This document shows positions 11,532 through 63,580 of a stretch of 64,000 nucleotides of DNA, one piece after another. The DNA lies in the NCBI GenBank assembly GCA_000092065.1, contig CP000592.1; one strand, 5' to 3'. The stretch's first letter is position 1. The number at the start of each line of letters is the position of its first letter. A model generated the notes under the pieces. The model was not told the DNA's origin. It searched no databases and saw only the letters and a program-made list of their open reading frames with translations. This DNA is from Ostreococcus lucimarinus. Lineage: Eukaryota. Position numbers and translations under genes: made by a program.

Positions 11532-13064
11532 ATGTCGACGCCGCTCTCGACGCGCGCGCGCGCGCCGACGCGCGCGGAATCTCGGACGCGGCGTCGCGAC
11601 CGCCGAAAGACGCGCGCGACGCGAACGACGCCGCGGTCGATCGCGGAACCGTCGGAAACCGGAACCGGCGGCGCCGACGCGGCGAGCGATTCGCGACGGA
11701 AGCGCGTCTCGATGGTCAGCCTGGGGTGCCCGAAGAACACGGTGGACGGGGAGGTGATGCTGGGGGATCTGCACGGCGCGGGATTCGACGTGACGGACGA
11801 TCACGAGAGCGCGGACGCGATCGTCATCAACTCGTGCGGATTCGTGGAGGACGCGAAGAACGAGAGCGTGGAGGCGATCCTGGAGGCGTCGCAGCTGGCG
11901 AACGGGAGCAAGAAGATCATCGTGACGGGATGCTTGGCGCAGCGGTACGCGAACGATCTGGCGAACGAGCTGCCGGAGGCGGACGTGATCGTGGGGTTTG
12001 AGAATTACGCCAATCTGCCGAAAACCGTGGGGGGGTTGCTCGGCGTGGAGACGAACGGGTTGATCGCGCCGCAGCAAGCGCGGGTGCAGGTGGGAGGGGC
12101 GAGCCCGCCGTTTAGAGAAGAGATAAAACGGTTGAGGATCACGCCGAGACACACGGCGTATCTGAGAGTGGCGGAAGGGTGCGATCACAAGTGCACTTTT
12201 TGCGCGATTCCGAGCTTTCGCGGGAGGTTTCGGTCCAAGCCGTGGCAGTCAATCATCGACGAAGCGAAGGCGTTGGCGGATTCGGGAGTTCGTGAGCTTA
12301 ACTTGATCGCAGAAGATACGAATCAGTGGGGCATCGACTTGAGAGCGAGCGATGGACGCGGGTTGGCCGAGCTCTTGTACGCGCTCGCCGAGGTCGAGGG
12401 CATCGAGTGGATGCGCATCCTGTACGCGTATCCGTCGTACTTTTCCGACGAGCTCATCCGAGCCATCGCGGATGTTCCGCAAGTGTGCAAATATATCGAT
12501 ATTCCGCTTCAGCACATCACAAACTTGTCGCTATTGCGAATGAATAGGCCGCCTCGGCAGCACACGGAGGATTTGTTGTACAAGCTGCGAGACCGAATTC
12601 CGGATTTAGCGCTTCGCACAACCTTCATCAGCGGATTCCCGGGAGAAACCGAGGAAGAACACGAAGAACTAATGCAATTTTGCCGTGATTTCAAATTTGA
12701 ACGACTCGGTGCGTTTGCGTACAGCGAAGAGGATGGTACGCCGGCGATGGAATACCCGGACCAAGTTCCGGAGGAAATTCGCGCGATTCGTCGCGACCAG
12801 CTCGTGTCGCAACAGCAAGAGATCAGCGAAGACTTTGCGATGAGCCGCGTCGGAAAGGACGTGGATGTGTTAATAGATAATTGGGACGAAGATATGCAGG
12901 CGTTCATCGGGCGTACCACGCTCGAGGCGCCGGATATTGACCCCGTGGTTTTCGTCACCGAGGACAAGTCCAAGGGCTTGCCTCCGATCGAACCGGGACA
13001 AATGCGAAGGTGCAACGTCATCGGATCGAGTCTTTTCGATCTCGAGGCGCAACCCATCATGTAA
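11532..13064 (+). CDS. rimO: Ribosomal protein S12 methylthiotransferase RimO (radical-SAM MiaB family) with an N-terminal organellar presequence
   Basis: The MTTase N-domain (VSMVSLGCPKNTVDGE), the radical-SAM CxxxCxxC motif (CDHKCTFCAIP) and a C-terminal TRAM domain are all present. ATG at 11532. Confidence 0.9.
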   Translation: MSTPLSTRARAPTRAESRTRRRDRRKTRATRTTPRSIAEPSETGTGGADAASDSRRKRVSMVSLGCPKNTVDGEVMLGDLHGAGFDVTDDHESADAIVINSCGFVEDAKNESVEAILEASQLANGSKKIIVTGCLAQRYANDLANELPEADVIVGFENYANLPKTVGGLLGVETNGLIAPQQARVQVGGASPPFREEIKRLRITPRHTAYLRVAEGCDHKCTFCAIPSFRGRFRSKPWQSIIDEAKALADSGVRELNLIAEDTNQWGIDLRASDGRGLAELLYALAEVEGIEWMRILYAYPSYFSDELIRAIADVPQVCKYIDIPLQHITNLSLLRMNRPPRQHTEDLLYKLRDRIPDLALRTTFISGFPGETEEEHEELMQFCRDFKFERLGAFAYSEEDGTPAMEYPDQVPEEIRAIRRDQLVSQQQEISEDFAMSRVGKDVDVLIDNWDEDMQAFIGRTTLEAPDIDPVVFVTEDKSKGLPPIEPGQMRRCNVIGSSLFDLEAQPIM

Positions 13065-48117: not shown

Positions 48118-49890
48118 CTAAAATTCTTCCATCTTTCGCACCGTTCTGTCGCGTTTCGCGCGTGCCTCGATGAATTCGGCGCGCGCGCGCGCGAGCGCGG
48201 AATTGACGCTGTTCAAACCGTTGAATTGACGGGCGCCGCGCGGCGAATCGGCCACCATGAAGGGACTGTTCGGCGCCGTCGCCGAACGCCGGCGAATGAC
48301 GACGAATTCTTCGCCATCCGATTCTTCGTCCGAGACTTCGTGAACGTGCAGTTTTTTCGTGCTCGTCGACGCGCCGTTCGCGCGCGCGAAGCGCGAGGAG
48401 ACCCTGGGCGGCGTGCGCGCGACGTGCTCGAGCATCGCGTGTTCGCGAACGCTGTTGCGTCTCGCGTCTTGCTCGAGCAACGCGTTGATCTCGCCCGTGA
48501 GCTCGTTCGAGCGTTTTTCAGTCTCTTGAAGCCTGACGCGCGCGTCCTTTTCGCGCGCGTACGCTCGATCCAACTCGCGTCGCAGCGCGTTTCTCTCTTC
48601 CTCCAGCGCCCCGAGGCGCGAGTCGAGCGACTCGATGTACGCCTCGGCTTCCGCCTGCTTGGCTCGCATCTCCTGCAAGCTGCGCTGATGCGCCTCGGAC
48701 GCGCTCGCCATGGCGTTGCTCACGTGCATGGAGGCTTGCGCCGACGCCGCGTCCATGGCGTCAATCTCTTGGAGCAAACCTTCGACGCGCGCTTCGCTCG
48801 CCGCGAGCTGTTCCTCGAGCTTGTCTTTGAGCTGACGCTGTTTATCGAGCGTTTCGTTCAAGCGCGCGCCTTCGGACGCGAGGTCCTCCGCGCGACGCTT
48901 CAGCGTCGCGATTTCCGCGTCCTTCTCTCGCGCGGACAGGGAGAGACGACGCGTCTCCTGATCCGCGTCTTCTTGAGATCGCTCGAGTCGTCGCAGCTCG
49001 ACTTCCAGCTTGTTGACCACGACGCTGCGCTCCTCTAAAACCGTCTCCATCTCGGCGCGAAGCTCCGCGGACTCTCGCCGCGACGCGTTCAACTGCTCGC
49101 GCAGCTCGCTTTCGATCGCGTCGCTGCTTTCGGCGAGCGTGTGCATCCGCCTTTGCACCTCGGCCAACGTCTCCTGTAACTCGCGTCGCTCGGCTTCAAT
49201 CTCGCGCATCTCGGCGCCTCGGCTTCGTCCGCTCTTCACGTCCGGCGTCCTGTAGAGCTTTTTACCACCGCTGCTCGGCGACGAGCGCTCGAGCGCCATG
49301 TCTTCGAGCAATCGCTCCACCTCCGCCCGCAGCCGCGCTTCGTACGCCTCGACGTCATCCGACGACGGCGGTCGCGCCCTCGCGTACGCCAACTTTGTCT
49401 CGTAATCCGCGCACGCCGCGACGTGCGCGTCCAAAACCGCCGTCAGCAAATCCCCCACGCGCTCCCGCGTCGTCCCATCGCGCTCGATCCAAATCATCGG
49501 ATCGTTCTCCGCCGCGCGCGCGACGTCCGCCTCCACCAATCCGCGCTCGGCGCACGCCGTCGCGAACGCCGTCGCCGCGCGACACACGTCCTCCAGCGCT
49601 CCCTCCGCCGTCGCGCACCGCGCTAACGCTTCCGCCTCGCGCGCCGACGCGCGCTCGCGCTCTTCCGCTGACCGTTCACCGTCCGCGCGCGCCCGCGCGA
49701 GGCGCTCGCCCGCGGCCTCGGCGTCGTCCCTCGCCGCGTCGCGCTCGAGCGCCCTGGCGCGTCGCTCGAGCGCGAGCGCGCGCTCGAGCTCGTCCGCGCG
49801 CGTCGTCGCGCGCGCCCGCGTCGTCGGCGGGTCCGCGGCGACCGTCGCGTCGACGCGGTCGCCGCGACGCCGCGTCGACGGCCATCGCAT
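48118..49890 (-). CDS. Long coiled-coil protein (structural or tethering-type), function unknown
   Basis: Heptad-rich E/R/A/L sequence throughout. The chosen start ATG (49888-49890, MRWPSTRRR) is the first Met that does not overlap tubulin exon 1. The listed ORF extends antisense across alpha-tubulin exon 1, and that part is rejected. Confidence 0.55.
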
Positions 49891-50123
49891 CGCGACGCGA
49901 TGTGCGGGCGCGGCCTCAATCGACGGGTCGTGACTCAGCGACGAGGGACTCGAGGGGGACCACCGCGACTTCGAACGGCCCGCGAACGCCTCGAGCGGCA
50001 CTTCTCGAAGCGCGTCATCGCCGCAGCGACCTCGAATCGCTCGCCGACGACCGCGTGCGCCTCGACGAATCGGTCGGTGACGCGAATTTACGCGCGCGTG
50101 CGACGGACCGAACGACCGACGCC

Positions 50124-51659
<1,536 letters not shown>

Positions 51660-51902: not shown

Positions 51903-51928
51903 CATCCCACTACAAGCGTAGTGGGATG
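51903..51928. promoter_or_regulatory. Perfect 11-bp inverted repeat (catcccactac aagc gtagtgggatg) overlapping the ATG of the downstream ORF
   Basis: Seen directly. The motif tcccacta also occurs at 51868-51875. Confidence 0.4.
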
Positions 51929-53395
51929 AATCAGACACTTTCGAAAATCGCGCGCCACGACGCGACGCGCGCGCCGAACGTGCTCAAACCGTTCGTCTCC
52001 ATCGTTTCACGCCGTCCTCGAACCCCGCCGGAGTTCGTCGTCAGATTTTCCGGACAGATTTTCCGGACGGGTCTCCGCACAGCGCGCGTCATCGGCGCCC
52101 ATCGCGCGATGACGCTCGCCGACGCCGCGCGCGCGTGCGTCCCGACGCCCGCCGACGCCTCGTCCGACGACTTCGCGTCGGCCGCGTTCGACCGTCTGCG
52201 CGCGCTGCGCGACGGCGCGCGCGATTTGGAACCGGCGCGCGCGTCGGCGATTCGTCGGATGCCGACGAATCGCGAAGCCTCCGGATCGGCGCGGCTCGTG
52301 GAAGAGATCTCGTCCGACGACGTCGCGCCGACGTCCGAGTCCGAGTCCGCGCTCGCGCTGCTCGCGTGCGCGGCGCACGGCGCGCTCGGCGACGGCGACG
52401 TCCCGAGGTGGTCGAACGCGCGACTGAGCGCGCTCGCGGCGGAGACGTACGACGACGGATTCAAAGCCAGAGGTCCCGACGCCGTGATCGATAGTTTTTT
52501 GGAGGCGTACGGGCGCGCGGACGCGCCGGCGGCGCCGGCGGCGTCGTTCGGGGCGAACGCGGAGTCGGACGCGCGCGCCGCGGAGATCGCGGCGCGGCAA
52601 CTGTCGTGGTGCTTGGAGCGAGACGAGTTGTATCTGGGAAGCCCGTCGAGGACGCGCGAGGTCGTGGCGGTCGCGATGCCGCGCGTGTTGAGAGCGTTGG
52701 ATTACCCGTCGGAAGGGGTGAGGACGAGCGGCGCGATGTCTGCGAGGGCGCTGTCGAGGCGCGCGACGGGATTCGATTGGCGCGCGGGACCGGGCGCCGT
52801 GTTGCTCGACGCGTGTCGGTCCGCATTGATAGGCGCGAGCGCGGAGGTTTGGCCGCACGCCTTGGACGTCGCGTGCGCGTTGACGGGCGTCGTCGCGAGG
52901 GACGCGGGAATCGAGGAATATCGCAAGACGTTCTCGCGAGCCATCGACTGCGCGCGCTTGCGCGGGACGGAGACGGCGTACGCCGCGCCGCTGCTCGCGT
53001 CGTTTCCGAATTTGATTCGCGACGCGAAGGCGTGCGTCGCGGTGCACCTCGATCGTTTGCTCCCGCTTTTGTGCGCGTACATGCAATCGCACAAGGACGA
53101 CGTCGCCGTCGGCGCGGCGTCGCTCGTCGCGCTCGTCGTCGAAAACGCCTGGCCGCGCGCGCGCGCGCACTGCGAGTCGATGTGGCCGCACGTGAAGCGC
53201 GCGTACGCCGAAGCGGACGGTCGATCAGCGGTGAGCTGCGATAAATTACGCGCCGAGCTCGAACGCGTCGTCGAACTCGTGCAACTCGCGGCGGGGGGGG
53301 AATTCACGCGAGTGTGGAAGAGCGACGAAGACGTTCCGGCGCACGCCGTCGGTTTGGTTCGATTCCTCGCCGCGCTCCCGGCGACGCGCGCGTAG
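51926..53395 (+). CDS. Hypothetical alpha-helical protein (489 aa)
   Basis: A long ORF with a real ATG and protein-like composition. No family recognised. The real start may be a downstream Met (MTLADAARA). Confidence 0.5.
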   Translation: MNQTLSKIARHDATRAPNVLKPFVSIVSRRPRTPPEFVVRFSGQIFRTGLRTARVIGAHRAMTLADAARACVPTPADASSDDFASAAFDRLRALRDGARDLEPARASAIRRMPTNREASGSARLVEEISSDDVAPTSESESALALLACAAHGALGDGDVPRWSNARLSALAAETYDDGFKARGPDAVIDSFLEAYGRADAPAAPAASFGANAESDARAAEIAARQLSWCLERDELYLGSPSRTREVVAVAMPRVLRALDYPSEGVRTSGAMSARALSRRATGFDWRAGPGAVLLDACRSALIGASAEVWPHALDVACALTGVVARDAGIEEYRKTFSRAIDCARLRGTETAYAAPLLASFPNLIRDAKACVAVHLDRLLPLLCAYMQSHKDDVAVGAASLVALVVENAWPRARAHCESMWPHVKRAYAEADGRSAVSCDKLRAELERVVELVQLAAGGEFTRVWKSDEDVPAHAVGLVRFLAALPATRA

Positions 53396-53520: not shown

Positions 53521-54930
53521 TCACTCGTGCAGCAATTTCAAGTTTAAATTCGGAAATCCGCTCGCGCCCTTGTGCTTTGCGAACAAGCGCGCCACCTCGC
53601 GGTAATACGCCGCGTGAGCGATCTCAACGTCGCTCTCCCTCGCTCGTCCCGCGTCATCGGGCTCGGGAAGCGACATCGGGTCGCCGACGACGAACGTGAG
53701 CGGCACTCGGGCCGGAATCGGGAGAATGCCGAGGTAGCCCACCGCTAAAAGCGGCGTCGCGACGCGAAAGCGTCTGTACAAATATCGACCGGGGTGCCGC
53801 AAGAGATTGCGCCAGCTGCTACTCTCGCCGAAACACACGACGGGCACGAGACGCGCTTTTTCTTCGATGGCGAGTCGAACGAACCCGCGATGTTTCGTGC
53901 AGAGCGTGATGGTCTCCTCCTTCAATCCGCCGACGTGCTCGCACATCTCGCCCTGACCGCCCGGACACACGACGACCGCGCGCTCGTGACGAAGCGTCGA
54001 ACGAAATATTTCTTGCGACACGCTGCGCACGCCCAACCACGCGGCGAGCTCTCGCACGAACGGCGGCTTGAAAAGAACGCTCGCGGCCAACGTCACGGGC
54101 TTGACGTTTTCAAAGCGACGACCAAACTGAGGTAAAAAGTGAAACCACACGGCGCCCGCCGGAATGAGCGAGTGCGGGTGATAGGCAAAGACGAGAGGCG
54201 TCGAGCCCGCGCCGTGCGCGCCGTCGTGAATCATGCGCACGCTCCCGTGCCACGCCTTCGCCGCGCCCTCTATCCATCGCGACGACCACGCTCGAAACGC
54301 GTCCCACTTCCGGCGCCCGCGCTCGAGATCGCGCTGCAAGAAATACGTGCTCGCGTACAGAACAACGATGGACGCCAGCGCTCCCGACGACCCGAGCGCG
54401 TACACCGTCGCCAGCGTCGCGAAAATCACCGCGTGCGGCGCGTGCAACACGTGCGCGATGGACAACAGCGTCGCGACGCGCGCGACGTCTCTAAAATCCA
54501 AACCTTCCCTTCCCCTCGCCGCGCCTCGCCCCGCCTCGCCCTCGTCCTGGACGTCGAAGAACGCCAGCGACGCCGCCACCGCCGCCTCGCTCGCGACGCT
54601 CAGTCCCAGGCTCGTCCAACTCAGCGCCGCCACCGCCAGTCGCCGCTCGCGCGTCCCGTCGTCCCTCGCGTCCCTCGCGTCTCGCCACACCAGCGTCCCG
54701 CACGCCATCACGCACGCCAGCGACGCGCTCGCCAGCGTCCATCCGATCGCTTGCGCCAGCGTGAACCTCCACGATCGTCCTCGCGCGAACGGTTGCCACG
54801 CGCGCCATCCTCGTCCTCCGAACAGCGCGCCACCGACGCCAAAGTTCGTGATCGCCACCGCGAGCAGGCACGCGAGCGCGCCCGCGGACGGCGCGCGCCA
54901 ATCGATCGCCGCGTCCGCGGGCGCGCGCAT
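53521..54930 (-). CDS. Diacylglycerol acyltransferase type 2 (DGAT2/MGAT family)
   Basis: N-terminal TM helices, a YHPHS motif (the HPHG-box equivalent), and FVRLAIEEKARLVPVVCFGE..PLTFVVGDP typical of DGAT2. ATG at 54928-54930. Confidence 0.8.
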   Translation of the reverse strand: MRAPADAAIDWRAPSAGALACLLAVAITNFGVGGALFGGRGWRAWQPFARGRSWRFTLAQAIGWTLASASLACVMACGTLVWRDARDARDDGTRERRLAVAALSWTSLGLSVASEAAVAASLAFFDVQDEGEAGRGAARGREGLDFRDVARVATLLSIAHVLHAPHAVIFATLATVYALGSSGALASIVVLYASTYFLQRDLERGRRKWDAFRAWSSRWIEGAAKAWHGSVRMIHDGAHGAGSTPLVFAYHPHSLIPAGAVWFHFLPQFGRRFENVKPVTLAASVLFKPPFVRELAAWLGVRSVSQEIFRSTLRHERAVVVCPGGQGEMCEHVGGLKEETITLCTKHRGFVRLAIEEKARLVPVVCFGESSSWRNLLRHPGRYLYRRFRVATPLLAVGYLGILPIPARVPLTFVVGDPMSLPEPDDAGRARESDVEIAHAAYYREVARLFAKHKGASGFPNLNLKLLHE

Positions 54931-54960
54931 CGACCGCTCGCGCGTCGACGTGTGCGCGGC

Positions 54961-55008
54961 GTTCCGATTCCGATTCGATTCCGATTCGATTCGATTCGAT
55001 TCGATTCG
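54961..55008. repeat. (GATTC/CGATTC)n microsatellite
   Basis: gttccgattccgattcgattccgattcgattcgattcgattcgattcgcg fills much of the 165-bp divergent DGAT2/SENP promoter. Confidence 0.9.
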
Positions 55009-55095
55009 CGCGCGTCGCGTCGCGACGGACGCACACGGCGCCGCGCGGGCGCGCCGCGCGGGCGCGACGGCGACGACCTCGCGCGCGATCGCGCG

Positions 55096-57681
55096 ATGGC
55101 CGTCGACGAGGACGACGACGAGGACGCGCGCGACGAGGACGGATCGATCGCGAACTCGGACGCGCTCGAGACGCGACGACGGAGGACGCGCGACGACGAC
55201 GACGGGACGACGACGACGAGGACGACGACGACGATGGACGCGCGGATGCGGCGCGCGAGGCGCGAGCACGAGAAAATCGCGCGAACGTACGCGGAGGCGC
55301 ACGAGAACGTGGGGACGAGGGAAAACGGGACGACGCGCGACGCCGACGCGCTGCGAAGGGAACGCGTCAAGACGAGTCATCTGATAGCCAAGGTGAACGA
55401 AACGAAAGTCGGCGCGAACGCGACGCTGGTGAGAAGGAAGGAGTATTTAGACCGGATGATCGCGAACGCGGAGGAACGGGAGGCGTTGATGGAGGACGGC
55501 GGATCGGAGGCGCGAGGCGGAGGCGCGGCGACGACGACGACGCGCCGGGACGCGCCGCAGGAATGGACGACGATGGGGCAGATGGCGGAGAGAAAGTCGC
55601 CGGCGAAGTCGCTGAGGGAGCGCGATGCGAGAGATTTCCAGCCGGAAAAGTATAGATTTGACGACGAAAAGGCGTCGCCGAGCGCGGCGGAGGCTGTCAA
55701 CGGGTTGAGCAGAGCGTTGGACGACATAGACGGAGATTTAGGGTCGATGTCGTCTCTGTCGCCCGATAGATATCCAGGACGAAAAGAAACGGCGAGTTGG
55801 GACACGTTAGCGCGACAACCGACGTCGCACGGCAGTAGACAGTTGGACGCCGCGCTCGGGCGCGCGGGGGCTCCCGAGGCGAAGTCGACGCCGACGACGA
55901 TTTCGACGTACTTTAAGAAGAGCGCGGGTGCGACGCAGCCGACGACGACGACCGCCGCTGTGGACGATTTCGCCGCTGCTGCGACCGACAAGAGTCGCGA
56001 GCGTCTGCCGATGTCGCCGCCGCCGCCCAAGCGTCGAGCGAAGTCGACGCGCGGCGACCCGGCGTCTCCCATGGTGGTGGATCTTCTGGAGACGAGCGAC
56101 GAGGAGAACCCGTTGGAGAACGAGTCAAGAGGGGTGCAAAGCTTGGATCCAGTGAGTCTTACGAGCGAGAATGGTGAAATTCGCCGATCGACGCGCTCGA
56201 GTAGGTATCGCTCGCTGCAGAACACCGTCGGCAACTTGGCGACGGATTACCCAGACTCGAAGACGAAGGGGTCGGTGCAAATCACTCTCGGCGACTTGGA
56301 GCACCTCAGAGACGGCGAGATGCTGAACGATCAGTGCGTGGACTTTTATTTGAAGTACATTCAAGTGGAAATGTTGGGCGCGAACGCGTTTGAGATATTA
56401 GACAAGGTGCACATTTTTAACAGCTTTTTCTATCAAAAGCTCGCGCAAAAGCACGATAGAGATCGAAGCAACGTCGACGCCGCGACGGCATCGCACGCAC
56501 GCGTGAAGAATTGGACCAAGGGTGTGGATATCTTTACGAAAAGCTTTCTCATGATTCCCGTGCACAGCAATTTGCATTGGTCTTTAGTCATCGTTTGCTA
56601 TCCAAACGGTACTGATGAGCGCCAACCGATGATGCTCCATCTCGACAGCATGACGCAACATGGCGGGCACAACTCAGAAGTCGTGTCGAAGACGGTCCGG
56701 CGTTACCTGAGCAAAGAATGGAAAACGCAAAAGGGCGACGACACTGAATCAAAATTCGACGCTCGATACATGCCAACGTATCGCGTCAATGTTCCGAGAC
56801 AAAACAATGGTTGCGACTGCGGCGTTTTCATTTTGGCCTTTCTCGAAAAGTTTTTAACCGAACAACCCGAGATTTTGAAGAAGAGCGATGTTCAACGCGC
56901 GGCGCAAAAGCGCTCGTTTGGAATGGACGATGCGGGCAAGTTTCTACGAAAGAACTGGTTTCCCAACGAGTTCGTGGACGAATTGCGCGCCAAGTTGAGT
57001 CTCCTCGTCATCCAGCGCATTCAGGCTTCGCTCGCGGAAAACGACGCGTCAAAGCTCATTCTCAACGCGGCAAATGAAGAGCAAATGAAAGACTATGAGC
57101 ATCGGCAGTGGCGAACGAAACAAGCGGTTTCAAAGGCTGAGCGTGACCGTAAGAAGAGAATGGAAGCCATGGAAGCGGAGCGAAGACGCAAGCTCGAGCC
57201 GCAAGACCTCTCTGACGACGACGACGCCAAAACCAAAGCCTCCGACGCCAAGGATGTAGACTTTGAGATTTCTCGCGAAGTCAGGGTGAAGAAACAGCCG
57301 ACGAAGACTAGGCAGACGCAGATATTCTCGGGATCCCACTGGAACAAGGCGAGAGAGAAAGAACCCGTGCGCGAGGAGACTCGCGACGAGAAGCCATTCG
57401 AACCCTTCGCGGGCCCGTCGTACAAAATCGGGCGACACACGCGCGCGCGTGCGCCTTCTCCGAGCGCTGATTGGACGAGCGGAACGACCCGTCCCAAGTA
57501 TGGTAACGCCAACCTTTTGAAACGAGCGGAACGATCGCGAGCGAAGCAAAACGGGGAAGAGGAACGGAGCGCCGCCGACGACGAATCCCCGGGCCAGGCC
57601 AAGGCGAAGCTCAACGACGCGAATGAAAAACTTTCCGAGAGAATCAAGGGGATGACGTCTCGAGTGTTCTCGACGAAATAG
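55096..57681 (+). CDS. Ulp1/SENP-type SUMO-specific protease (peptidase C48)
   Basis: The C-terminal C48 domain is clear (MLNDQCVDFYLKY..KSFLMIPVHSNLHWSLVIV..QNNGCDCGVFILAFLEKF), with catalytic His, Asp and Cys. The N-terminus is low-complexity and acidic. The first ATG that does not overlap DGAT2 is at 55096. Confidence 0.8.
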   Translation: MAVDEDDDEDARDEDGSIANSDALETRRRRTRDDDDGTTTTRTTTTMDARMRRARREHEKIARTYAEAHENVGTRENGTTRDADALRRERVKTSHLIAKVNETKVGANATLVRRKEYLDRMIANAEEREALMEDGGSEARGGGAATTTTRRDAPQEWTTMGQMAERKSPAKSLRERDARDFQPEKYRFDDEKASPSAAEAVNGLSRALDDIDGDLGSMSSLSPDRYPGRKETASWDTLARQPTSHGSRQLDAALGRAGAPEAKSTPTTISTYFKKSAGATQPTTTTAAVDDFAAAATDKSRERLPMSPPPPKRRAKSTRGDPASPMVVDLLETSDEENPLENESRGVQSLDPVSLTSENGEIRRSTRSSRYRSLQNTVGNLATDYPDSKTKGSVQITLGDLEHLRDGEMLNDQCVDFYLKYIQVEMLGANAFEILDKVHIFNSFFYQKLAQKHDRDRSNVDAATASHARVKNWTKGVDIFTKSFLMIPVHSNLHWSLVIVCYPNGTDERQPMMLHLDSMTQHGGHNSEVVSKTVRRYLSKEWKTQKGDDTESKFDARYMPTYRVNVPRQNNGCDCGVFILAFLEKFLTEQPEILKKSDVQRAAQKRSFGMDDAGKFLRKNWFPNEFVDELRAKLSLLVIQRIQASLAENDASKLILNAANEEQMKDYEHRQWRTKQAVSKAERDRKKRMEAMEAERRRKLEPQDLSDDDDAKTKASDAKDVDFEISREVRVKKQPTKTRQTQIFSGSHWNKAREKEPVREETRDEKPFEPFAGPSYKIGRHTRARAPSPSADWTSGTTRPKYGNANLLKRAERSRAKQNGEEERSAADDESPGQAKAKLNDANEKLSERIKGMTSRVFSTK

Positions 57682-57799
57682 AAAGAAACGCGCGCCAAGC
57701 ATTCAGCGAGCGATGTTTACGCGGCGCTCGTCCTAGCGATAGATATGTGATTGATGATTGACGTTGTTTGACGCGACGCCCGCCACACGTCGCCTCGCC

Positions 57800-58189
57800 A
57801 TGCGCGCCGTCCTCCAACGCCTCGCGTCTCGCGCGATCCTCCGCGCCGGACCCGCGCGCAGGCCGCTCGATCGTGCGCTCGCATCGTCATCGTCCTCAGA
57901 CGATCCCGCGCGCGCGATGCGCCCCATGCCCGAAGGCGCCGCGCCCGTCGTCGACGAAGACATGCCCAAACAGGATGAGGAAGAACTTCGACGACGACGC
58001 GCGCAGGCGCTGAAATCGTGGCTGGAGGATGAGTTGGGAACCGAGAAGACGGCGCTCATGGCGGTGTTGGCGAAACACCGGGTGCAGATACCCGGAGGGG
58101 GGGACGAGGCGAAGGCGCTGCTGGAGGAGTTGTTGGAGTGGAAAGCCGAGGGCGTCGTAAACGCGCGTTCGACGGACGCCGCGGATTAG
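57800..58189 (+). CDS. Hypothetical small protein (129 aa) with a mitochondrial-type presequence
   Basis: ATG at 57800 (MRAVLQRLASRAILRAG..). The acidic helical C-terminus reads KSWLEDELGTEKTALMAVLAKH. No family recognised. Confidence 0.35.
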   Translation: MRAVLQRLASRAILRAGPARRPLDRALASSSSSDDPARAMRPMPEGAAPVVDEDMPKQDEEELRRRRAQALKSWLEDELGTEKTALMAVLAKHRVQIPGGGDEAKALLEELLEWKAEGVVNARSTDAAD

Positions 58190-58253: not shown

Positions 58254-60779
58254 CTACGCGATCGATGGGTGCTCGACGCGATGTTGGGGTGCGTGAGCGT
58301 ACAAGGTGGTGCGTTGAAGCGGAACGCGGCCGGCGGCTTCGATGATTCGACGCATTTCGCGCGCGTCGATTTCTTGCCCAAACGTCGCACCAGCGGCGCG
58401 AGTGATGGATTCATTCATGAGTGTACCGCCCATATCGTTGCATCCAGCGTGCAGGAGAAGTGAGGCGAGCTCGGGACCCATTTTTACCCAGCTCGCCTGA
58501 ATGTTCGTGATTCCCGCCGGTCCCAGCACGAGACGCGCGACGGCGTGCATCAGGATGCACTCGCGCAGCGTTGGACCTTTCCGAGACGCGCCGAAACGAT
58601 ACGTCGGCGCCTCGAAATGCACGAAAGGTAGTGGTACGAACTCCGTGAATCCACCCGTCTTGAGATGCAAATCGCGAATGGAGACGAGATGTCGCGCCCA
58701 CGCGCGCGGGCCGTCGGCGTCAATGTGACCGAACATGATGGTGCTCGTCGTTGGCACGCCCACAAAGTGAGCGTCTTCGACGACATCGAGCCATTCTTTC
58801 GCGGTGAGTTTATCTGGACAGAGTGTTTCGCGAACTTGGTCGTCCAAAACCTCGGCAGCAGTACCTGGGAGCGATCCCAGCCCTGCATCCTTGAGTTTAC
58901 GCAAGTATTCGCGAGCGCTCAGACCGAGAGTCTGCGCTCCGTGAGCGATTTCGAGCGGTGAAAAGGCGTGAATGTGTATGTCCGGTGCCCCTCGTTTCGC
59001 AGCTCCGATAAAAGCCATATAATCTTCGCCTGTGAACGAGGGATGAATGCCGCCTTGCATGCAGACTTCGCTCGCACCACGCTCCCAAGCCTCGGCCGTT
59101 CGCCTTGCGACTTCGTCCAAGTCGAGCAGGTACGGCGAACCGCGAAGTTCTTCTGCAGCCTTTCCCTTGGAAAACGAACAAAACGTGCACGCCAACGTGC
59201 AGATATTCGTATAGTTAATGTTTCTATTGTTCACAAACGTAACGGTATCACCACACTGCTGCTCTCGCAAAGTATTCGCGGCCTCGCACACCTTGTCGAA
59301 ATCGGCGCCTCTCGCTTGTAAGCACGTCACGATGTCGTCCAACTCATAGTTTCCGTCCACTATGGCGGCTATGGCGGCCAGAACTTCGCTCGATATACGC
59401 CTCTTGGTACCACGACAAGGAACAGAGCCATTCACGCCGACGATATCCACAAACTCTTTCTTTTCATCATCCGGACGTCCTGGCGACCATGTCGTACCGC
59501 GAACGAGAAACTCGCTGTCGGCGAGTTTGCGAAGATACGGCGAAACTTTGTCGTCAAGCCAAACTGCGGATCCCCCGACGCTCACTCGATCATCGTCTAC
59601 CCTCAAGTACTTAGGGTGCACTGGCAGTCTCGGGACGAGCGCGAAACCTTCATCGGCGCACACGGTGGCGAGCTCTTCTATGTGCGGCCATGGCGCCTCG
59701 GCGTTGACGTGGTCCGGCGTGACGCCCGGCGAGATTCCTCCCCAATCATTCGCACCGGCGCGCAAAAGGGCGCGCCAGCCAGCCTCTTCGCCTGGTGTAA
59801 GATTCGGTGGCGCCTGTATAATCATGTCTGCGCCAAAAATTAGGCGAGCTGCGCTCACCGTCCACGTCAACTCTTCCAGCGGAGGATTTGGAAAATCAGC
59901 CATCGCGGTGCCGGGTTTCGATAAGAAATTCTGTATGATGAGCTCTTGAATGTGTCCGTGCTTGGCATGTACATCGCGAAGCGCCAGAAGTGCATCGATA
60001 CGCTCTTCGCGAGTCTCGCCGATCCCAATCAATAATCCAGACGTGAACGGGATGCGCTCCTCTCCCGCGAGCTCGATGCACCGCAGGCGCGTCTTCGGTC
60101 GCTTTGTCTCACACCCGTCGTGCGCCATTCCCGGCCCCAATAACCGCTCGCTCGTCGTCTCCAACATCAACCCTTGCGACGCGCTCACGCGTCGTAGCAT
60201 CCTCAACTCGTCTCTCGTCAACACACCCGCGTTTACGTGCGGCAACAACCCCGTCTCTCGCAACACCGCCTCGCACGCCTTTGCCGCGTACTCCGCCGTG
60301 CTCGCGCATCCCAACTCCCTCAATCCCTCTCGCGCATCCTCCCGCGTCGCCTCGGGTCGATCACCAAACGTCAACAAACACTCCGTCGCCCCCGCCGCCG
60401 CGCCTCGTCGCGCCACGTCGACGATTTCCTCGAGCGTCATGTACACGCGCTTTCCAGCCGCGCTCGGTTCGTAGTCGACGAACGCGCAGTATCCGCACGA
60501 GTCCCGACACGCGCGCGTGAGCGGAACGAACACCTTGGGCGAGTACGTCACGACGTTTGCATTCGTCGTTCGCGGCGACGACGACGACGCGTCCCGGTTG
60601 AGGCGTCGGACGTCGTCGAGTAAATCATCAGCCGACTTTGTCACCAAGGCGTAGGCGGCGACGTCGTCGAGGACGGCGACGCGCGCGACGGCTGCGCGAG
60701 GACGGTGATGCGCGCGTTGGACGCGCGCGCGTGCGCGCCACGCGCGAGGACGCGCGACGTCGGCGAGCGTCTCGCGCAT
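58254..60779 (-). CDS. fbiC: Bifunctional FO synthase (7,8-didemethyl-8-hydroxy-5-deazariboflavin synthase), a CofG+CofH fusion of FbiC type
   Basis: Two radical-SAM halves each carry a CxxxCxxC motif (CRDSCGYCAF; CTLACTFCSF), with CofG-like and CofH-like sequence throughout. 841 aa. ATG at 60777-60779. Confidence 0.88.
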   Translation of the reverse strand: MRETLADVARPRAWRARARVQRAHHRPRAAVARVAVLDDVAAYALVTKSADDLLDDVRRLNRDASSSSPRTTNANVVTYSPKVFVPLTRACRDSCGYCAFVDYEPSAAGKRVYMTLEEIVDVARRGAAAGATECLLTFGDRPEATREDAREGLRELGCASTAEYAAKACEAVLRETGLLPHVNAGVLTRDELRMLRRVSASQGLMLETTSERLLGPGMAHDGCETKRPKTRLRCIELAGEERIPFTSGLLIGIGETREERIDALLALRDVHAKHGHIQELIIQNFLSKPGTAMADFPNPPLEELTWTVSAARLIFGADMIIQAPPNLTPGEEAGWRALLRAGANDWGGISPGVTPDHVNAEAPWPHIEELATVCADEGFALVPRLPVHPKYLRVDDDRVSVGGSAVWLDDKVSPYLRKLADSEFLVRGTTWSPGRPDDEKKEFVDIVGVNGSVPCRGTKRRISSEVLAAIAAIVDGNYELDDIVTCLQARGADFDKVCEAANTLREQQCGDTVTFVNNRNINYTNICTLACTFCSFSKGKAAEELRGSPYLLDLDEVARRTAEAWERGASEVCMQGGIHPSFTGEDYMAFIGAAKRGAPDIHIHAFSPLEIAHGAQTLGLSAREYLRKLKDAGLGSLPGTAAEVLDDQVRETLCPDKLTAKEWLDVVEDAHFVGVPTTSTIMFGHIDADGPRAWARHLVSIRDLHLKTGGFTEFVPLPFVHFEAPTYRFGASRKGPTLRECILMHAVARLVLGPAGITNIQASWVKMGPELASLLLHAGCNDMGGTLMNESITRAAGATFGQEIDAREMRRIIEAAGRVPLQRTTLYAHAPQHRVEHPSIA

Positions 60780-60872
60780 GAAGACGACGACGCGCGGCGG
60801 TCTGGCGCCCGGGCTTCGGGCGAGTCGGACGCCGGCGCGCCGGCGCGGGCTCGAAAATGTGTAAATGTACAG

Positions 60873-62144
60873 TTACAACCCTTCGAGGGCGATGGACGCG
60901 CGCGACGCCACTTCGATGGCTTCGCCTAATCCTTTCGTCGTCTTCATCAGATCCATGGCTTTGCGCACGAGCTCGTGGGCGGTAAATTTTCGGGCTGGAA
61001 GCTTTCGAGCGACGAGCTGCATCAAGTCGTCGTTCTTTTTGCACGCCATGACCTGCGAACGCATGCTCACCAAAGCCGCGGCGACGACGTGTAGGAACAG
61101 TCTCGCGCCACCTCCTGCGAGTGTGCCGTTGGCTCTGGATGTGGGTTCGTGATCGCCGCCGGCAATCAACATGTCCCACAAAAGACCAATCTCGGCGTCG
61201 GCGAGTTCTCGCGACATCAACACGACGACGGGTCTAAAAGCAAACATGCACTCCTGCGCGTTGAGAAACTTCAAGTGCTTATGCAGAGGTGGATCTGCAA
61301 TTCTAATTATCTCACTCAGCACTCGCAATCGATCGCTCACGCCCTCTTGACCTTTCGACGCCGACGGCGCGCTCTCGTGCGGATTGATGAGAAAGTGACA
61401 TCGATACGAACCTCCCATAAATTTCGCAAAGCACCAAAACGCCTCGGACTCGTTACTAATATCGCGAAGAAATACCGCGGCTAAATCGTTCATTCCTTGC
61501 GTATAGCCTATCACTGGATCCAAAATAGCGTACGCCTCCAGAATTCTCGTCAAGCGTTGACGTTGCGCCAGTCTCCATTCCATCTTCAATTCGTCTTCGT
61601 CGTCGCCGCTCAGGATCCCGCTCTCCCAATCCCGCGCGAACGTACCGTAGGTGAACGTCGTCCGCGGCGCGTCTGCAGCGATGATCCTCGACGCCTCAGT
61701 GAACGATGCGAGATCGCTCGGCAAATTCGCCAATCCTTTGACCGGTTTTGTAAGCCACCCCTCCAGCTCTGCGCATCGCCTTAGAAACTCGCCGTATTGC
61801 TCGCGTCTCGATCGTTTCCCTTGCTCGTGCTCCACGCTCGTGTTCGAGCATTTCCGCACCCCAAGCAACACCGGCCACACCTCCGCTCGCAACGAGTGCG
61901 GAATTCCTCCATCGAGCGCGCCTTTGCGCACTTCCGCGAGCGACGCGATGCGTCCGTCTTGGTCCGTCGCCGCGTACCACGTCTCGTGCGCGAGCTTTTT
62001 CTTCTTCATCGATCCACCGCGCGCGTCTCGGGCAAAGTAAGACGCGTACACCGACGCGCTCGCGAGGGCGAGAGCGAGACCAGTGCTCGCGACGGCGGCA
62101 CTCGCGAGCGCAACCTTCAAGGCGCGCGAATCTTCGGACGCCAT
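60873..62144 (-). CDS. TBC-domain Rab GTPase-activating protein
   Basis: IPHSLRAEVWPVLLGV (Arg-finger region) and YTQGMNDLAAVFL (Gln-finger YxQ) motifs. ATG at 62142-62144. Confidence 0.85.
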   Translation of the reverse strand: MASEDSRALKVALASAAVASTGLALALASASVYASYFARDARGGSMKKKKLAHETWYAATDQDGRIASLAEVRKGALDGGIPHSLRAEVWPVLLGVRKCSNTSVEHEQGKRSRREQYGEFLRRCAELEGWLTKPVKGLANLPSDLASFTEASRIIAADAPRTTFTYGTFARDWESGILSGDDEDELKMEWRLAQRQRLTRILEAYAILDPVIGYTQGMNDLAAVFLRDISNESEAFWCFAKFMGGSYRCHFLINPHESAPSASKGQEGVSDRLRVLSEIIRIADPPLHKHLKFLNAQECMFAFRPVVVLMSRELADAEIGLLWDMLIAGGDHEPTSRANGTLAGGGARLFLHVVAAALVSMRSQVMACKKNDDLMQLVARKLPARKFTAHELVRKAMDLMKTTKGLGEAIEVASRASIALEGL

Positions 62145-62350
62145 GGCGACGGTGGTGGATTACCGTTGGCGACACAAACTTTTGCGATGACGCGAGCGTG
62201 GGGGCGCGCGCGACGCGATGCGACGCGCGAGGTCGATGTGGCGATGACCTCGACGCCTCAAAGCGCTTCTCGGTGTCCAGCGTCGAGGGAAGGCGTCGAT
62301 ATGTGCGGCGACGGCTCGCGGTACGTTCTGTCAAGTACAGCGCTAGACTA

Positions 62351-63580
62351 CTACGTTCTACGCATCGGTTCGGCGTCGAGAGGACAGCTTAAAGATTGAT
62401 TGGATTGACCCGTAACGCGAATACCGCCGCGCATCGGTCCGGGCTCGACGGTGCCGAAGCGTTCCGCGAATATTTCGGGAAGCGGCATGGCGCCGACGCG
62501 CTCGTTCGGGGAAACCCACATTCGGACGAGGTGCCTCGGCTCGGCGCCTTCGTTTTTGAAGGCGCTTCGAGCGTGTAAAGTGGTGTGATTATGAAGCCAT
62601 TGAATATCACCCGGTTCAAGGGTCATGTCCAGACGCAATTCGTCCGAACACGCGAGCGCGTCCAAATGATCGAGCGCCGCGGTTTGCGTTTTACTCAACT
62701 CAACGCCCGTCAGCGCCACCGCGGAGTTGATGAATGAACGGTCGTATATTGCCGCGCACCTGCCTTCGTGCGCGTGAAAAATAGGTATTTTATACGTCGC
62801 TTCCTTGCCGACCGGAACTTCTCCTTTGCGCGAGACGACGAACTCTTTTTGAAGCGTGGCCGCGCTTTCTGGAAAGCGCTCGACGAGAGCGTTCCAAATC
62901 GCCACCGAAGACGTCACCTGACTGTGCCCCCCTTCCGTCGCTTGACTCAGACAAAGTAATCCCACGATATCCGCAGAATCAGTGTGATACGGTTGCGCTG
63001 CACTCGTCGTGTATAAACGCGTGAGCGGATCGTTCGGATCGCCCCCAAGGTCTTTCACGTGGCCCACGACGTGCCCCAGTTTGTTTTGCGGCACGCACGT
63101 GCCCATGTACCGACCCATGGCGTAAAACGCCGCGCAGCGCTCCCAACTAGAATATCTATGCACGGGAAAATTTCGCATCAGGGCAAAACCTCGCCCGTGG
63201 ACGAGCTCTCGTCCCATGTCTTCGAGCGTCGGCCCGAGCGTCGGCAGAGAAAAGTTTTCTGGACCGAGTTCGACGATTTCCCGCACCCCGTTCGCCTTGG
63301 TGCGCGCTAAGGCGTCGTCAATCTCCCGCACGTGTTCATGCGAAAGCTCAATCGTCCACTCGTACGACCGCTGCGCCATATCGGGCCCGCGCCACGCCCC
63401 ATCGAACGTTTCGAGTGCGCTCGCCGATGGTTCAGCTAACGCCGAGGCGCGACTTTCGAGGCGCCTACGCGCGAAACGCGATCGCGTCGGTGGTCTCGCG
63501 GCGACGAATGACGATGAATTACTTGTCGTCGTCGTCGTCGTCGTCCGCGCACACGAGCGCATATCGCACGCGACGCGCAT
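62351..63580 (-). CDS. TauD/TfdA-family Fe(II)/2-oxoglutarate dioxygenase (clavaminate-synthase-like) with an N-terminal transit peptide
   Basis: HTDSADIV (HxD) and a later HNHTTLHARSAF region. ATG at 63578-63580. Confidence 0.7.
   Translation of the reverse strand: MRVACDMRSCARTTTTTTTSNSSSFVAARPPTRSRFARRRLESRASALAEPSASALETFDGAWRGPDMAQRSYEWTIELSHEHVREIDDALARTKANGVREIVELGPENFSLPTLGPTLEDMGRELVHGRGFALMRNFPVHRYSSWERCAAFYAMGRYMGTCVPQNKLGHVVGHVKDLGGDPNDPLTRLYTTSAAQPYHTDSADIVGLLCLSQATEGGHSQVTSSVAIWNALVERFPESAATLQKEFVVSRKGEVPVGKEATYKIPIFHAHEGRCAAIYDRSFINSAVALTGVELSKTQTAALDHLDALACSDELRLDMTLEPGDIQWLHNHTTLHARSAFKNEGAEPRHLVRMWVSPNERVGAMPLPEIFAERFGTVEPGPMRGGIRVTGQSNQSLSCPLDAEPMRRT

What the first reader, a model, noticed from the sequence alone, without database searches (positions are those of the whole stretch)
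58254..60779. Fused CofG/CofH FO synthase (FbiC) in a eukaryotic nuclear genome
An 841-aa protein carries both radical-SAM halves needed to make the deazaflavin chromophore FO (8-HDF). In bacteria and archaea these are usually separate CofG and CofH, or a fused FbiC in actinobacteria. In green algae FO is known to serve as the light-harvesting antenna of photolyases and cryptochromes. The neighbouring genes are typical eukaryotic ones, so this is a resident nuclear gene, not contamination.
Basis: partly seen in the sequence, partly recalled or inferred. Interest (0 to 1): 0.5.

Follow-up and report, generated by a model that had tools for sequence, protein, structure and literature searches.

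The report
Known algal FO (deazaflavin) synthase gene
This is the nuclear gene of the marine green picoalga Ostreococcus lucimarinus for the two-domain radical-SAM enzyme that makes the deazaflavin FO (8-HDF), the light-harvesting pigment of photolyases; it is real and correctly read, but it is already annotated and the biology is already published, so it is ordinary.

Summary
An uninterrupted 841-aa ORF lies at 58254-60779 (-). Its N-terminal half passes the curated CofG models and its C-terminal half passes the CofH models. BioB, HydE, ThiH, MqnC and MqnE all fall below their cut-offs. Each half has a CxxxCxxC cluster motif (C91, C527). The AlphaFold model (pLDDT 86, pTM 0.90) shows two full-barrel radical-SAM domains.

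The protein is 100% identical to Ostreococcus lucimarinus CCE9901 XP_001420784.1 (UniProt A4S5K0, "FO synthase"). Flanking genes are eukaryotic (Ulp1, RabGAP-TBC, DGAT, tubulin and others). Codon usage matches the neighbours. Related picoalgal contigs share the FbiC - small ORF - Ulp1 - DGAT order. It is therefore a resident nuclear gene.

Chlamydomonas PHR1 is a published bifunctional FO synthase required for photoreactivation, and reviews already list FbiC "in bacteria and eukaryotes".

One correction concerns origin. The closest bacterial relatives are already-fused proteins of Acidobacteriota, Chloroflexota, Proteobacteria and Gaiellales (51-57% identity). Classical actinomycete FbiC is only 43-46% identical. 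In my NJ trees the green clade never grouped specifically with classical actinomycetes (0% of bootstraps). The donor is unresolved, and named cyanobacterial sequences could not be included.

Interest is low.

The parts
58254..60779 (-). Complete intron-less CDS of FO synthase (fused CofG-CofH, FbiC-type), 841 aa plus stop codon
   Evidence: ORF listing. 100% identical to O. lucimarinus CCE9901 XP_001420784.1 / UniProt A4S5K0. NCBIfam and Pfam hits.
60660..60779 (-). N-terminal extension (about aa 1-40), Arg/Ala-rich, predicted disordered; a possible organelle-targeting peptide (inferred, not shown)
   Evidence: 90 residues precede the first Cys motif, against 48-64 in named bacterial homologues; other green-lineage homologues have mostly 85-160. 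The first 40 aa contain 10 K+R and 10 Ala. pLDDT is below 50 for aa 1-33.
59601..60548 (-). CofG domain (aa 78-393): radical-SAM domain that cyclises and oxidises the CofH product to FO
   Evidence: TIGR03550 447.5 bits against 213.35; NF004884 410.6 against 209. Alternating beta/alpha elements in the model.
60486..60509 (-). First [4Fe-4S]/SAM-binding motif, C91-x3-C95-x2-C98 (CRDSCGYC)
   Evidence: Regex on the translation. C91, C95 and C98 are invariant in the 64-sequence alignment.
59340..59600 (-). Inter-domain linker (aa 394-480), about 20 residues longer than in bacterial fusions
   Evidence: The two Cys motifs are 436 residues apart, against 410-419 in named bacteria. No family profile covers this stretch.
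58296..59339 (-). CofH domain (aa 481-828): radical-SAM domain that joins the tyrosine-derived 4-hydroxybenzyl unit to 5-amino-6-ribitylamino-uracil; includes the CofH_C region (aa 710-829)
   Evidence: TIGR03551 511.9 bits against 374.1; NF005609 455.3 against 426; PF19288 CofH_C. 90 of 91 prokaryote-conserved columns are retained. Best structural match is MqnE 6xi9/6xig, TM 0.81-0.83 on the target.
59178..59201 (-). Second [4Fe-4S]/SAM-binding motif, C527-x3-C531-x2-C534 (CTLACTFC)
   Evidence: Regex on the translation. Invariant in the 64-sequence alignment.
60780..60872 (-). 93-bp spacer between the stop codon of the upstream RabGAP-TBC gene and the FO-synthase ATG; presumed 5' UTR and core promoter (inferred only)
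   Evidence: Sequence read and ORF coordinates.

Best explanation
The gene encodes the FO (7,8-didemethyl-8-hydroxy-5-deazariboflavin, 8-HDF) synthase of Ostreococcus lucimarinus. It is a single polypeptide made of two radical-SAM domains.

The mechanism below is taken from work on the bacterial and archaeal enzymes as summarised in PMC8498797; it is not shown here. The C-terminal CofH domain uses its [4Fe-4S] cluster and SAM to generate a 5'-deoxyadenosyl radical, fragments tyrosine, and attaches the hydroxybenzyl unit to the riboflavin-pathway intermediate 5-amino-6-ribitylamino-uracil. The product diffuses to the N-terminal CofG domain. A second 5'-deoxyadenosyl radical there drives cyclisation and oxidation to FO.

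In the alga FO is most likely the end product rather than an F420 precursor. It would be loaded as the blue-light antenna onto CPF1-type (6-4) photolyase/cryptochrome and class II CPD photolyase, raising the efficiency of photoreactivation.

Shown here: gene integrity, domain identity, cluster motifs, fold, nuclear residency and orthology across green algae, liverworts and a fern. Inferred: catalytic activity, FO as the end product, the photolyase clients, and organelle targeting through the approximately 35-40-residue basic N-terminal extension.
For: Domain assignment is above the curated cut-offs for CofG and CofH, and below the cut-offs for all paralogous radical-SAM families. Both CxxxCxxC motifs are present and invariant. 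172 of 183 columns that are at least 95% conserved in 49 prokaryotic homologues are retained, and the deviations I checked are shared across Mamiellophyceae rather than private to this genome. The two-domain model is confident, with pLDDT 86.4 and pTM 0.90, and has radical-SAM full-barrel neighbours MqnE, HydE, BioB, HydG and ThiH.

The protein is identical to an annotated O. lucimarinus protein that UniProt names FO synthase. Orthologues occur in Micromonas, Coccomyxa, Tetraselmis, Botryococcus, Marchantia, Riccia and Adiantum.

From the literature: Chlamydomonas PHR1 is a bifunctional FO synthase required for photoreactivation, and CraCRY binds 8-HDF (PMC6125616). 8-HDF binding has been suggested for O. 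tauri CPF1 (PMC8591175). The FbiC fusion occurs 'in bacteria and eukaryotes', and there is no evidence of F420 in eukaryotes (PMC8498797).
Against: No enzymatic or genetic data exist for this particular protein. The full-length equivalog model NF006687 (bifunctional CofGH) scores 976.4 bits, just under its 1018 cut-off. The CofG half deviates at 10 of 92 prokaryote-conserved columns; among them, R145 is invariant in the 49 prokaryotic sequences but is Thr here. No CPF or photolyase gene lies in the window, so the client proteins rest on literature alone. Absence of cofC/cofD/cofE could only be checked within these 64 kb.
Confidence: 0.92

Rival explanations
1. The gene is bacterial contamination or an assembly chimera, not a resident algal gene.
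For: The closest non-plant relatives are bacterial at 51-57% identity. The gene has no introns.
Against: It sits between eukaryote-only gene types on one contiguous sequence: RabGAP-TBC 93 bp upstream, and Ulp1 and DGAT downstream. Its codon usage correlates at r=0.89 with the pooled neighbours, inside the 0.78-0.91 range of the other genes, and its GC3 of 0.66 is typical. Two related picoalgal contigs carry the orthologue in the same FbiC - small ORF - Ulp1 - DGAT order. Orthologues form a green-lineage clade. Long intron-less ORFs are the norm across this window.
Confidence: 0.01
2. The C-terminal half is a menaquinone (futalosine-pathway) enzyme of the MqnC/MqnE type, or the halves are BioB/HydE/ThiH-like enzymes, so the product is not FO.
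For: MqnC (366 bits) and MqnE (297 bits) give strong secondary hits. MqnE is the best sequence and structural match in the PDB.
Against: All of those scores are below the families' curated cut-offs: MqnC 428.1, MqnE 434.55, BioB 225, HydE 254.6, ThiH 380. CofH and CofG are well above theirs. MqnE ranks first in the PDB only because no CofG, CofH or FbiC structure has been solved.
Confidence: 0.02
3. The enzyme makes FO mainly as the precursor of the redox coenzyme F420, as it does in bacteria, and not as a photolyase antenna.
For: In bacteria fbiC lies next to cofC, cofD or npdG, so the ancestral context was F420 synthesis.
Against: None of the ORFs scanned in the window (the FbiC ORF plus 33 others) matches a CofC, CofD or CofE family. 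The F420 review states there is no evidence that eukaryotes synthesise F420 (PMC8498797). Loss of the Chlamydomonas FO-synthase gene PHR1 abolishes photoreactivation (PMC6125616).
Confidence: 0.04
4. The gene is intact but catalytically decayed in its CofG half, that is, a relic.
For: 10 of 92 highly conserved CofG columns differ. These include loss of the prokaryote-invariant R145 and relocation of C131 to position 134.
Against: The C131A/A134C, P224E and Q705H changes are shared by every Mamiellophyceae sequence examined, and residue 225 is Thr or Ser in all of them in place of the prokaryotic Asp. R145 is replaced in most green-lineage sequences examined (retained only in Calypogeia and Botryococcus), including Marchantia and Coccomyxa. 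The Cys triad and 82 other conserved columns are kept. The ORF is 73-82% identical among picoalgal relatives with no frameshifts. Near-identical copies are abundant in marine metagenomes: 224 cluster members.
Confidence: 0.02

Closest known systems
Chlamydomonas reinhardtii PHR1 (bifunctional FO synthase)
   Same: A green-algal, nuclear-encoded, single-polypeptide CofG-CofH fusion. It supplies 8-HDF to CPF proteins and is required for photoreactivation (PMC6125616). Chlorophyte orthologues are about 55-58% identical to the window protein.
   Different: The PHR1 sequence itself was not in my hit list, so identity to it was not measured. The Ostreococcus protein is shorter than most green-lineage homologues (841 aa against 812-941 for the named ones). 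It also carries Mamiellophyceae-specific substitutions in the CofG half.
Fused bacterial FO synthases of Acidobacteriota (Vicinamibacterales), Chloroflexota, Proteobacteria and Gaiellales
   Same: They have the same CofG-to-CofH domain order in one ORF (80 of 80 loci). They show the highest non-plant identity: 51-57% overall, up to 61% in the CofG half and 66% in the CofH half. They group with the green clade in 88-100% of concatenated NJ bootstraps.
   Different: The bacterial genes sit in F420 operons with cofC, cofD or npdG. They lack the N-terminal extension and have a linker about 20 residues shorter. R145 is invariant in them.
Classical actinomycete FbiC (Mycobacteriales and Micrococcales; the NF006687 / PRK09234 type)
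   Same: The same two-domain architecture and chemistry. This is the family from which the fusion was first described.
   Different: Only 43-46% identity. It has the largest corrected distance of any fused group, 0.81 against 0.54-0.61. It never grouped specifically with the green clade, 0% of bootstraps. The window protein scores just below this model's cut-off, 976 against 1018.
Split CofG + CofH of archaea, cyanobacteria and some other bacteria
   Same: The same two reactions, and each domain is homologous.
   Different: They are two separate genes. Haloarchaeal CofG and CofH are 33-39% identical, and split bacterial pairs about 50-55%. No genuine stand-alone CofG representative grouped with the green clade. 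Named cyanobacterial sequences could not be obtained.
MqnE aminofutalosine synthase (PDB 6xi9 / 6xig)
   Same: It is the closest solved structure to the CofH half: TM 0.81-0.83 on the target and 28-29% identity. It is also a full-barrel radical-SAM enzyme.
   Different: It has a different substrate and pathway (menaquinone). The window protein is below the MqnE cut-off.

Membership tests
FO synthase, fused CofG-CofH (FbiC-type) | N-terminal domain matching CofG above the curated cut-off | tested here: met
   TIGR03550 447.5 bits against 213.35; NF004884 410.6 against 209; aa 72-421.
FO synthase, fused CofG-CofH (FbiC-type) | C-terminal domain matching CofH above the curated cut-off and better than the MqnC/MqnE paralogues | tested here: met
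   TIGR03551 511.9 bits against 374.1; NF005609 455.3 against 426. MqnC scores 366 (below 428) and MqnE 297 (below 434). CofH_C PF19288 scores 69.7 against 27.
FO synthase, fused CofG-CofH (FbiC-type) | One CxxxCxxC radical-SAM [4Fe-4S] motif in each domain | tested here: met
   C91/C95/C98 and C527/C531/C534. All six are invariant in 64 homologues.
FO synthase, fused CofG-CofH (FbiC-type) | Both domains in one uninterrupted reading frame, in the order CofG then CofH | tested here: met
   A single 841-aa ORF. All 80 closest bacterial loci have the same arrangement.
FO synthase, fused CofG-CofH (FbiC-type) | Full-length match to the NCBIfam equivalog 'bifunctional FO biosynthesis protein CofGH' (NF006687) above its cut-off | tested here: not met
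   976.4 bits against a cut-off of 1018, a narrow miss. The plasmid genes annotated with this product name are from actinomycetes (Tsukamurella, Paenarthrobacter, Rhodococcus jostii), and the window protein is only 43-46% identical to classical actinomycete FbiC. This argues against membership of that actinomycete subfamily. It does not argue against FO-synthase function, because both domain-level equivalogs pass.
FO synthase, fused CofG-CofH (FbiC-type) | Catalyses FO formation from tyrosine and 5-amino-6-ribitylamino-uracil | not testable with these tools
   Needs heterologous expression and an assay. The activity is inferred from orthology to characterised enzymes (PMC8498797; PMC6125616).
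Radical-SAM full-barrel clade (BioB/HydE/ThiH/HydG/MqnE-like fold) | Beta/alpha-barrel fold resembling solved members of the clade | tested here: met
   AlphaFold model with pLDDT 86.4 and pTM 0.90. Foldseek finds MqnE at E=2e-23, HydE at 1e-16, and BioB, HydG and ThiH at about 1e-12.
Coenzyme F420 biosynthesis pathway | Co-occurrence with cofC/fbiD, cofD/fbiA and cofE/fbiB | tested here: inconclusive
   None of the ORFs scanned in the 64-kb window matches these families. Eukaryotic genes are not clustered, however, and the rest of the genome was not available. The literature reports no F420 in eukaryotes.
Organelle-targeted (plastid or mitochondrial) nuclear-encoded enzyme | Cleavable N-terminal targeting peptide | tested here: inconclusive
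   There is an Arg/Ala-rich, disordered extension of about 30-40 residues relative to bacteria. No targeting predictor or localisation data were available.
8-HDF-dependent photolyase/cryptochrome system | A CPF or class II photolyase with a conserved 8-HDF pocket in the same genome | not testable with these tools
   No CPF gene lies in the window. The literature reports OtCPF1 and OtCPF2 in O. tauri and a suggested 8-HDF site in OtCPF1.

The most novel reading that the evidence does not exclude
The green-lineage FO synthase may not derive from the cyanobacterial plastid ancestor, whose cofG and cofH are separate genes, and it does not appear to derive from classical actinomycetes. Instead, an ancestor of Viridiplantae may have acquired it once, already fused, from a bacterium of the Acidobacteriota / Chloroflexota / Proteobacteria FbiC radiation. 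It was then re-purposed from F420 synthesis to antenna-pigment supply, with relaxed constraint on CofG residue R145 across the green lineage and a Cys131-to-134 shift in Mamiellophyceae.
Probability: 0.4. Interest if true: 0.3.

Novelty: already known. Interest (0 to 1): 0.1.

Why it matters
FO (8-HDF) greatly increases the light-harvesting cross-section of photolyases and of bifunctional cryptochromes. An abundant surface-ocean picoalga therefore depends on this gene for efficient UV-damage repair, and possibly for light signalling. Algae and mosses are also described as the dietary source of 8-HDF for animals, which cannot make it (bioRxiv 10.64898/2026.02.17.706321). All of this is established knowledge. 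This window adds only a clean, intron-less example and a hint about which bacterial FbiC lineage the plant gene resembles.

Tried and rejected
1. Glas et al. 2009 (PMC2704855), the key paper on F0 in eukaryotes, is not held. One search was malformed and another returned nothing. Ney et al. 2017, the published CofG/CofH/FbiC phylogeny, is not in the library either.

2. I tried to bring named cyanobacterial CofG into the tree. I ran phmmer with the CofG half against the 50% representatives and used two cluster look-ups on 20 stand-alone-sized hits. These returned only Salinibacterium, Ca. Nealsonbacteria, Methanobacterium, Methanobrevibacter, Hodarchaeales and unnamed proteins. The cyanobacterial hypothesis was therefore tested only indirectly.

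3. CofG-only trees with added unnamed representatives are unresolved. In one NJ tree the green clade sits nearer the classical actinomycetes. I treat this as lack of signal or long-branch effects, because the concatenated and CofH-only analyses disagree with it and no bootstrap replicate supports the grouping.

4. Strict monophyly of all eukaryotic sequences drops to 17-50% once unnamed fused representatives are added. I therefore claim monophyly only for the 16 named or Mamiellophyceae sequences.

5. The MAFFT end-alignment was useless for measuring the N-terminal extension, so I replaced it with distance to the first Cys motif.

6. The Ulp1 codon-usage value (r=0.34) is an artefact of an out-of-frame slice and should be ignored.

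7. Rfam and tRNA scans of the window found nothing.

8. Contamination, MqnC/MqnE, BioB/HydE and pseudogene readings were considered and rejected; see the rival explanations.
Full report
OBSERVATION. The window holds an ATG-to-stop ORF of 841 codons at 58254..60779 on the minus strand, exactly as reported. The ATG is the first one after an in-frame stop, and the only other Met in the first 130 residues (M114) lies after the first Fe-S motif, so the start is secure. Pfam finds two Radical_SAM stretches plus the CofH/MqnC C-terminal region.

NCBIfam splits the protein cleanly into two halves. Residues 78-393 match CofG: TIGR03550 scores 447.5 bits against a cut-off of 213.35, and NF004884 scores 410.6 against 209. 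Residues 481-828 match CofH: TIGR03551 scores 511.9 against 374.1, and NF005609 scores 455.3 against 426.

BioB (82 bits, cut-off 225), HydE (48, cut-off 254.6), ThiH (36, cut-off 380), PylB, HmdB, and the closer paralogues MqnC (366, cut-off 428) and MqnE (297, cut-off 434.6) all fall below their curated thresholds. Each half has one CxxxCxxC motif, CRDSCGYC at C91 and CTLACTFC at C527, and all six cysteines are invariant in a 64-sequence alignment.

ORGANISM AND RESIDENCY. The translation is identical over all 841 residues to Ostreococcus lucimarinus CCE9901 XP_001420784.1 / ABO99077.1, which UniProt (A4S5K0) already names "FO synthase". JGI names near-identical metagenomic copies as the CofH/CofG synthase. 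The 90% cluster has 224 members.

The rest of the window is clearly eukaryotic and nuclear. It carries BRO1/ALIX, a HECT E3 ligase, a cyclophilin, a hydroxyproline O-arabinosyltransferase, a syntaxin, an ABC1 kinase, the RNR small subunit, a CTR1-like kinase, a serine carboxypeptidase, XMAP215, a polyprenyl synthase, GARS, tubulin, DGAT, Ulp1, RabGAP-TBC and a TauD-family dioxygenase. The upstream RabGAP gene ends 93 bp before the FO-synthase ATG.

Codon usage of the gene correlates at r=0.89 with the pooled neighbours; the other genes range from 0.78 to 0.91. Its GC3 of 0.66 is typical. Two related picoalgal contigs, whose orthologues are 78% and 82% identical, keep the order FO synthase, small opposite-strand ORF, Ulp1, DGAT. 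Their upstream side differs. Contamination is excluded.

ANATOMY AND LIKELY MECHANISM. An AlphaFold2 model built on 64 homologues is confident, with mean pLDDT 86.4 and pTM 0.90. It shows two domains of alternating strands and helices, and residues 1-33 are disordered.

Foldseek against the PDB returns MqnE first (6xi9/6xig, TM 0.81-0.83 on the target, 28-29% identity). HydE, BioB, HydG, the tyrosine lyase ThiH, PylB and NosL follow, which is the full-barrel radical-SAM clade. No CofG, CofH or FbiC structure has been solved.

The chemistry follows established work as summarised in PMC8498797. CofH uses a 5'-deoxyadenosyl radical to fragment tyrosine and couple it to 5-amino-6-ribitylamino-uracil. 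CofG uses a second radical to cyclise and oxidise the product to FO. In FbiC the two domains act independently, with the intermediate diffusing between them. These steps are inferred for the alga, not shown.

Relative to bacteria, the protein has about 30-40 extra N-terminal residues. 90 residues precede the first Cys motif, against 48-64 in named bacterial homologues. The extension is Arg/Ala-rich and disordered. The inter-domain linker is about 20 residues longer. Most green-lineage homologues have even longer N-termini, 85-160 residues before the motif. This fits an organelle-targeting peptide but was not tested.

CONSERVATION. Of the columns that are at least 95% conserved in 49 prokaryotic homologues, the CofH half keeps 90 of 91 and the CofG half keeps 82 of 92.

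The deviations I checked are lineage-wide, not private to this genome. All Mamiellophyceae examined share C131A with A134C, so the cysteine moves three positions. They also share P224E and Q705H, and residue 225 is Thr or Ser in all of them in place of the prokaryotic Asp.

R145 is invariant in the 49 prokaryotic sequences but is replaced in most green-lineage sequences, including liverworts and Coccomyxa; only Calypogeia and Botryococcus retain it. Gene decay in this genome is therefore unlikely. The relaxed R145 is a small unexplained curiosity.

BIOLOGICAL ROLE. The window has no CPF or photolyase gene, so the client proteins rest on the literature.

In Chlamydomonas the PHR1 gene encodes a bifunctional FO synthase. 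[quoted passage not shown] 8-HDF binding was proposed for O. tauri CPF1 on structural grounds (PMC8591175).

The F420 review lists FbiC as occurring "in bacteria and eukaryotes" and says there is no evidence that eukaryotes make F420 (PMC8498797). In contrast, bacterial fbiC genes sit next to cofC, cofD or npdG. FO as the end product and antenna pigment is therefore the best-supported role.

A scan of one genome per prokaryotic species returned 598 relatives. The best 80 are all single-ORF fusions at 51-57% identity, from Acidobacteriota (Vicinamibacterales are closest, up to 61% in the CofG half), Chloroflexota, Alpha-, Beta- and Gammaproteobacteria, and Gaiellales.

Other groups are more distant:
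- Classical actinomycete FbiC (Rhodococcus, Tsukamurella, Nocardia, Paenarthrobacter): 43-46% identity.
- Split bacterial pairs (Leisingera, Thermomicrobium, Miltoncostaea): about 50-55%.
- Haloarchaeal CofG and CofH: 33-39%.

I built neighbour-joining trees with Kimura-corrected distances, 200 bootstraps and an archaeal root. The 16 green-lineage sequences are monophyletic in 90% of replicates (CofG), 81% (CofH) and 100% (concatenated). They fall inside the non-mycobacterial fused-bacterial group in 100% of concatenated replicates.

When 19 unnamed fused representatives are added, that last figure is 88% for the concatenation and 70% for CofH alone. CofG alone is unresolved, and strict eukaryote monophyly becomes weak. 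A specific grouping with classical actinomycetes appeared in 0% of replicates in every analysis.

No genuine stand-alone CofG among the best 150 representatives groups with the green clade. The one apparent exception, P0212, starts mid-domain and looks like a gene fragment. Cyanobacteria have split genes (PMC9178010), so this result gives no support to a plastid origin. It does not exclude one either, because I could not obtain named cyanobacterial sequences.

The bacterial sister group is unresolved, and these are distance trees, not likelihood analyses.

COMPARISON WITH KNOWN FAMILIES. The protein works like FbiC / CofG+CofH, and it is a member of that family at the domain-equivalog level. 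It narrowly misses the full-length equivalog NF006687 (976 against 1018 bits). That fits its distance from classical actinomycete FbiC.

VERDICT. The gene is already annotated, its counterpart in another green alga is genetically characterised, and reviews already note the eukaryotic fusion. Novelty is "already known" and interest is low. The only mildly new points are the affinity to non-actinomycete fused bacterial FbiC and the lineage-specific CofG substitutions. Both need proper phylogenetic or biochemical follow-up.

Noticed in passing
window 57926-58189 (+), within the listed ORF 57758-58189: A small ORF lies convergent with the 3' end of the FO-synthase gene, 64 bp away. It is conserved at 58-71% identity over about 70 residues in two related picoalgal contigs, where it is called as a 74-79-aa gene in the same position between FbiC and Ulp1. 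It has no Pfam match and its function is unknown.
   Followed up: partly
window 54139-57681 (+) versus 53521-55380 (-): The '1180-aa' Ulp1 ORF overlaps the DGAT gene on the opposite strand for about 1.2 kb. Its N-terminal third is Arg-rich and low-complexity. In relatives Ulp1 is 828-890 aa, so the true start is probably well downstream of 54139. Long spurious overlapping ORFs are common across this GC-rich window.
   Followed up: partly
window 60873-63580 (-) compared with L094 1-5808 and L095 1-4126: There is a synteny breakpoint immediately upstream of the FO-synthase gene. This genome has RabGAP-TBC and a TauD-family dioxygenase there. The related picoalgae have a PaO/VanA-type Rieske oxygenase, an FTO-domain protein (FTO_NTD + FTO_CTD) and a Myb protein.
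   Followed up: no
window 59601-60548 (-), protein residues 131-146, 224-225 and 705: Lineage-specific changes occur at positions that are nearly invariant in prokaryotes. C131A with A134C, P224E and Q705H are shared by all Mamiellophyceae examined, and residue 225 is Thr or Ser in all of them. R145 is invariant in the 49 prokaryotic sequences but is replaced in most green-lineage sequences (retained only in Calypogeia and Botryococcus). The functional meaning is unknown.
   Followed up: partly
window 11532-13064 (+): A second, unrelated radical-SAM gene lies in the same window. Its UPF0004 + Radical_SAM + TRAM architecture is that of a MiaB/CDKAL1-type tRNA methylthiotransferase.
   Followed up: no
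window 26101-28641 (+), 48118-50313 (-), 51926-53395 (+): Three long ORFs (846, 731 and 489 aa) have no Pfam match at E<=1e-4. They are either lineage-specific proteins or, in part, spurious GC-rich ORFs.
   Followed up: no
whole window, 2-kb bins: There is marked GC heterogeneity, from 0.514 to 0.681 between adjacent 2-kb bins. GC3 of the genes ranges from about 0.60 (HECT, XMAP215) to 0.85 (GARS, tubulin).
   Followed up: no
P0153 (1035 aa), P0176 (993 aa), P0248 (1017 aa), P0175, P0159, P0165, P0167: Unnamed fused representatives, several of them unusually long, cluster with the green-lineage clade in my NJ trees. They may be FO synthases of further eukaryotic lineages. Their source organisms were not identified.
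   Followed up: no
L083, L086, L092, L093 (plasmid loci): FO-synthase genes are carried on plasmids and megaplasmids of many bacteria (74 PLSDB records, 18 predicted conjugative), usually next to cofC, cofD or npdG. This shows that the fused gene is mobile among bacteria.
   Followed up: partly
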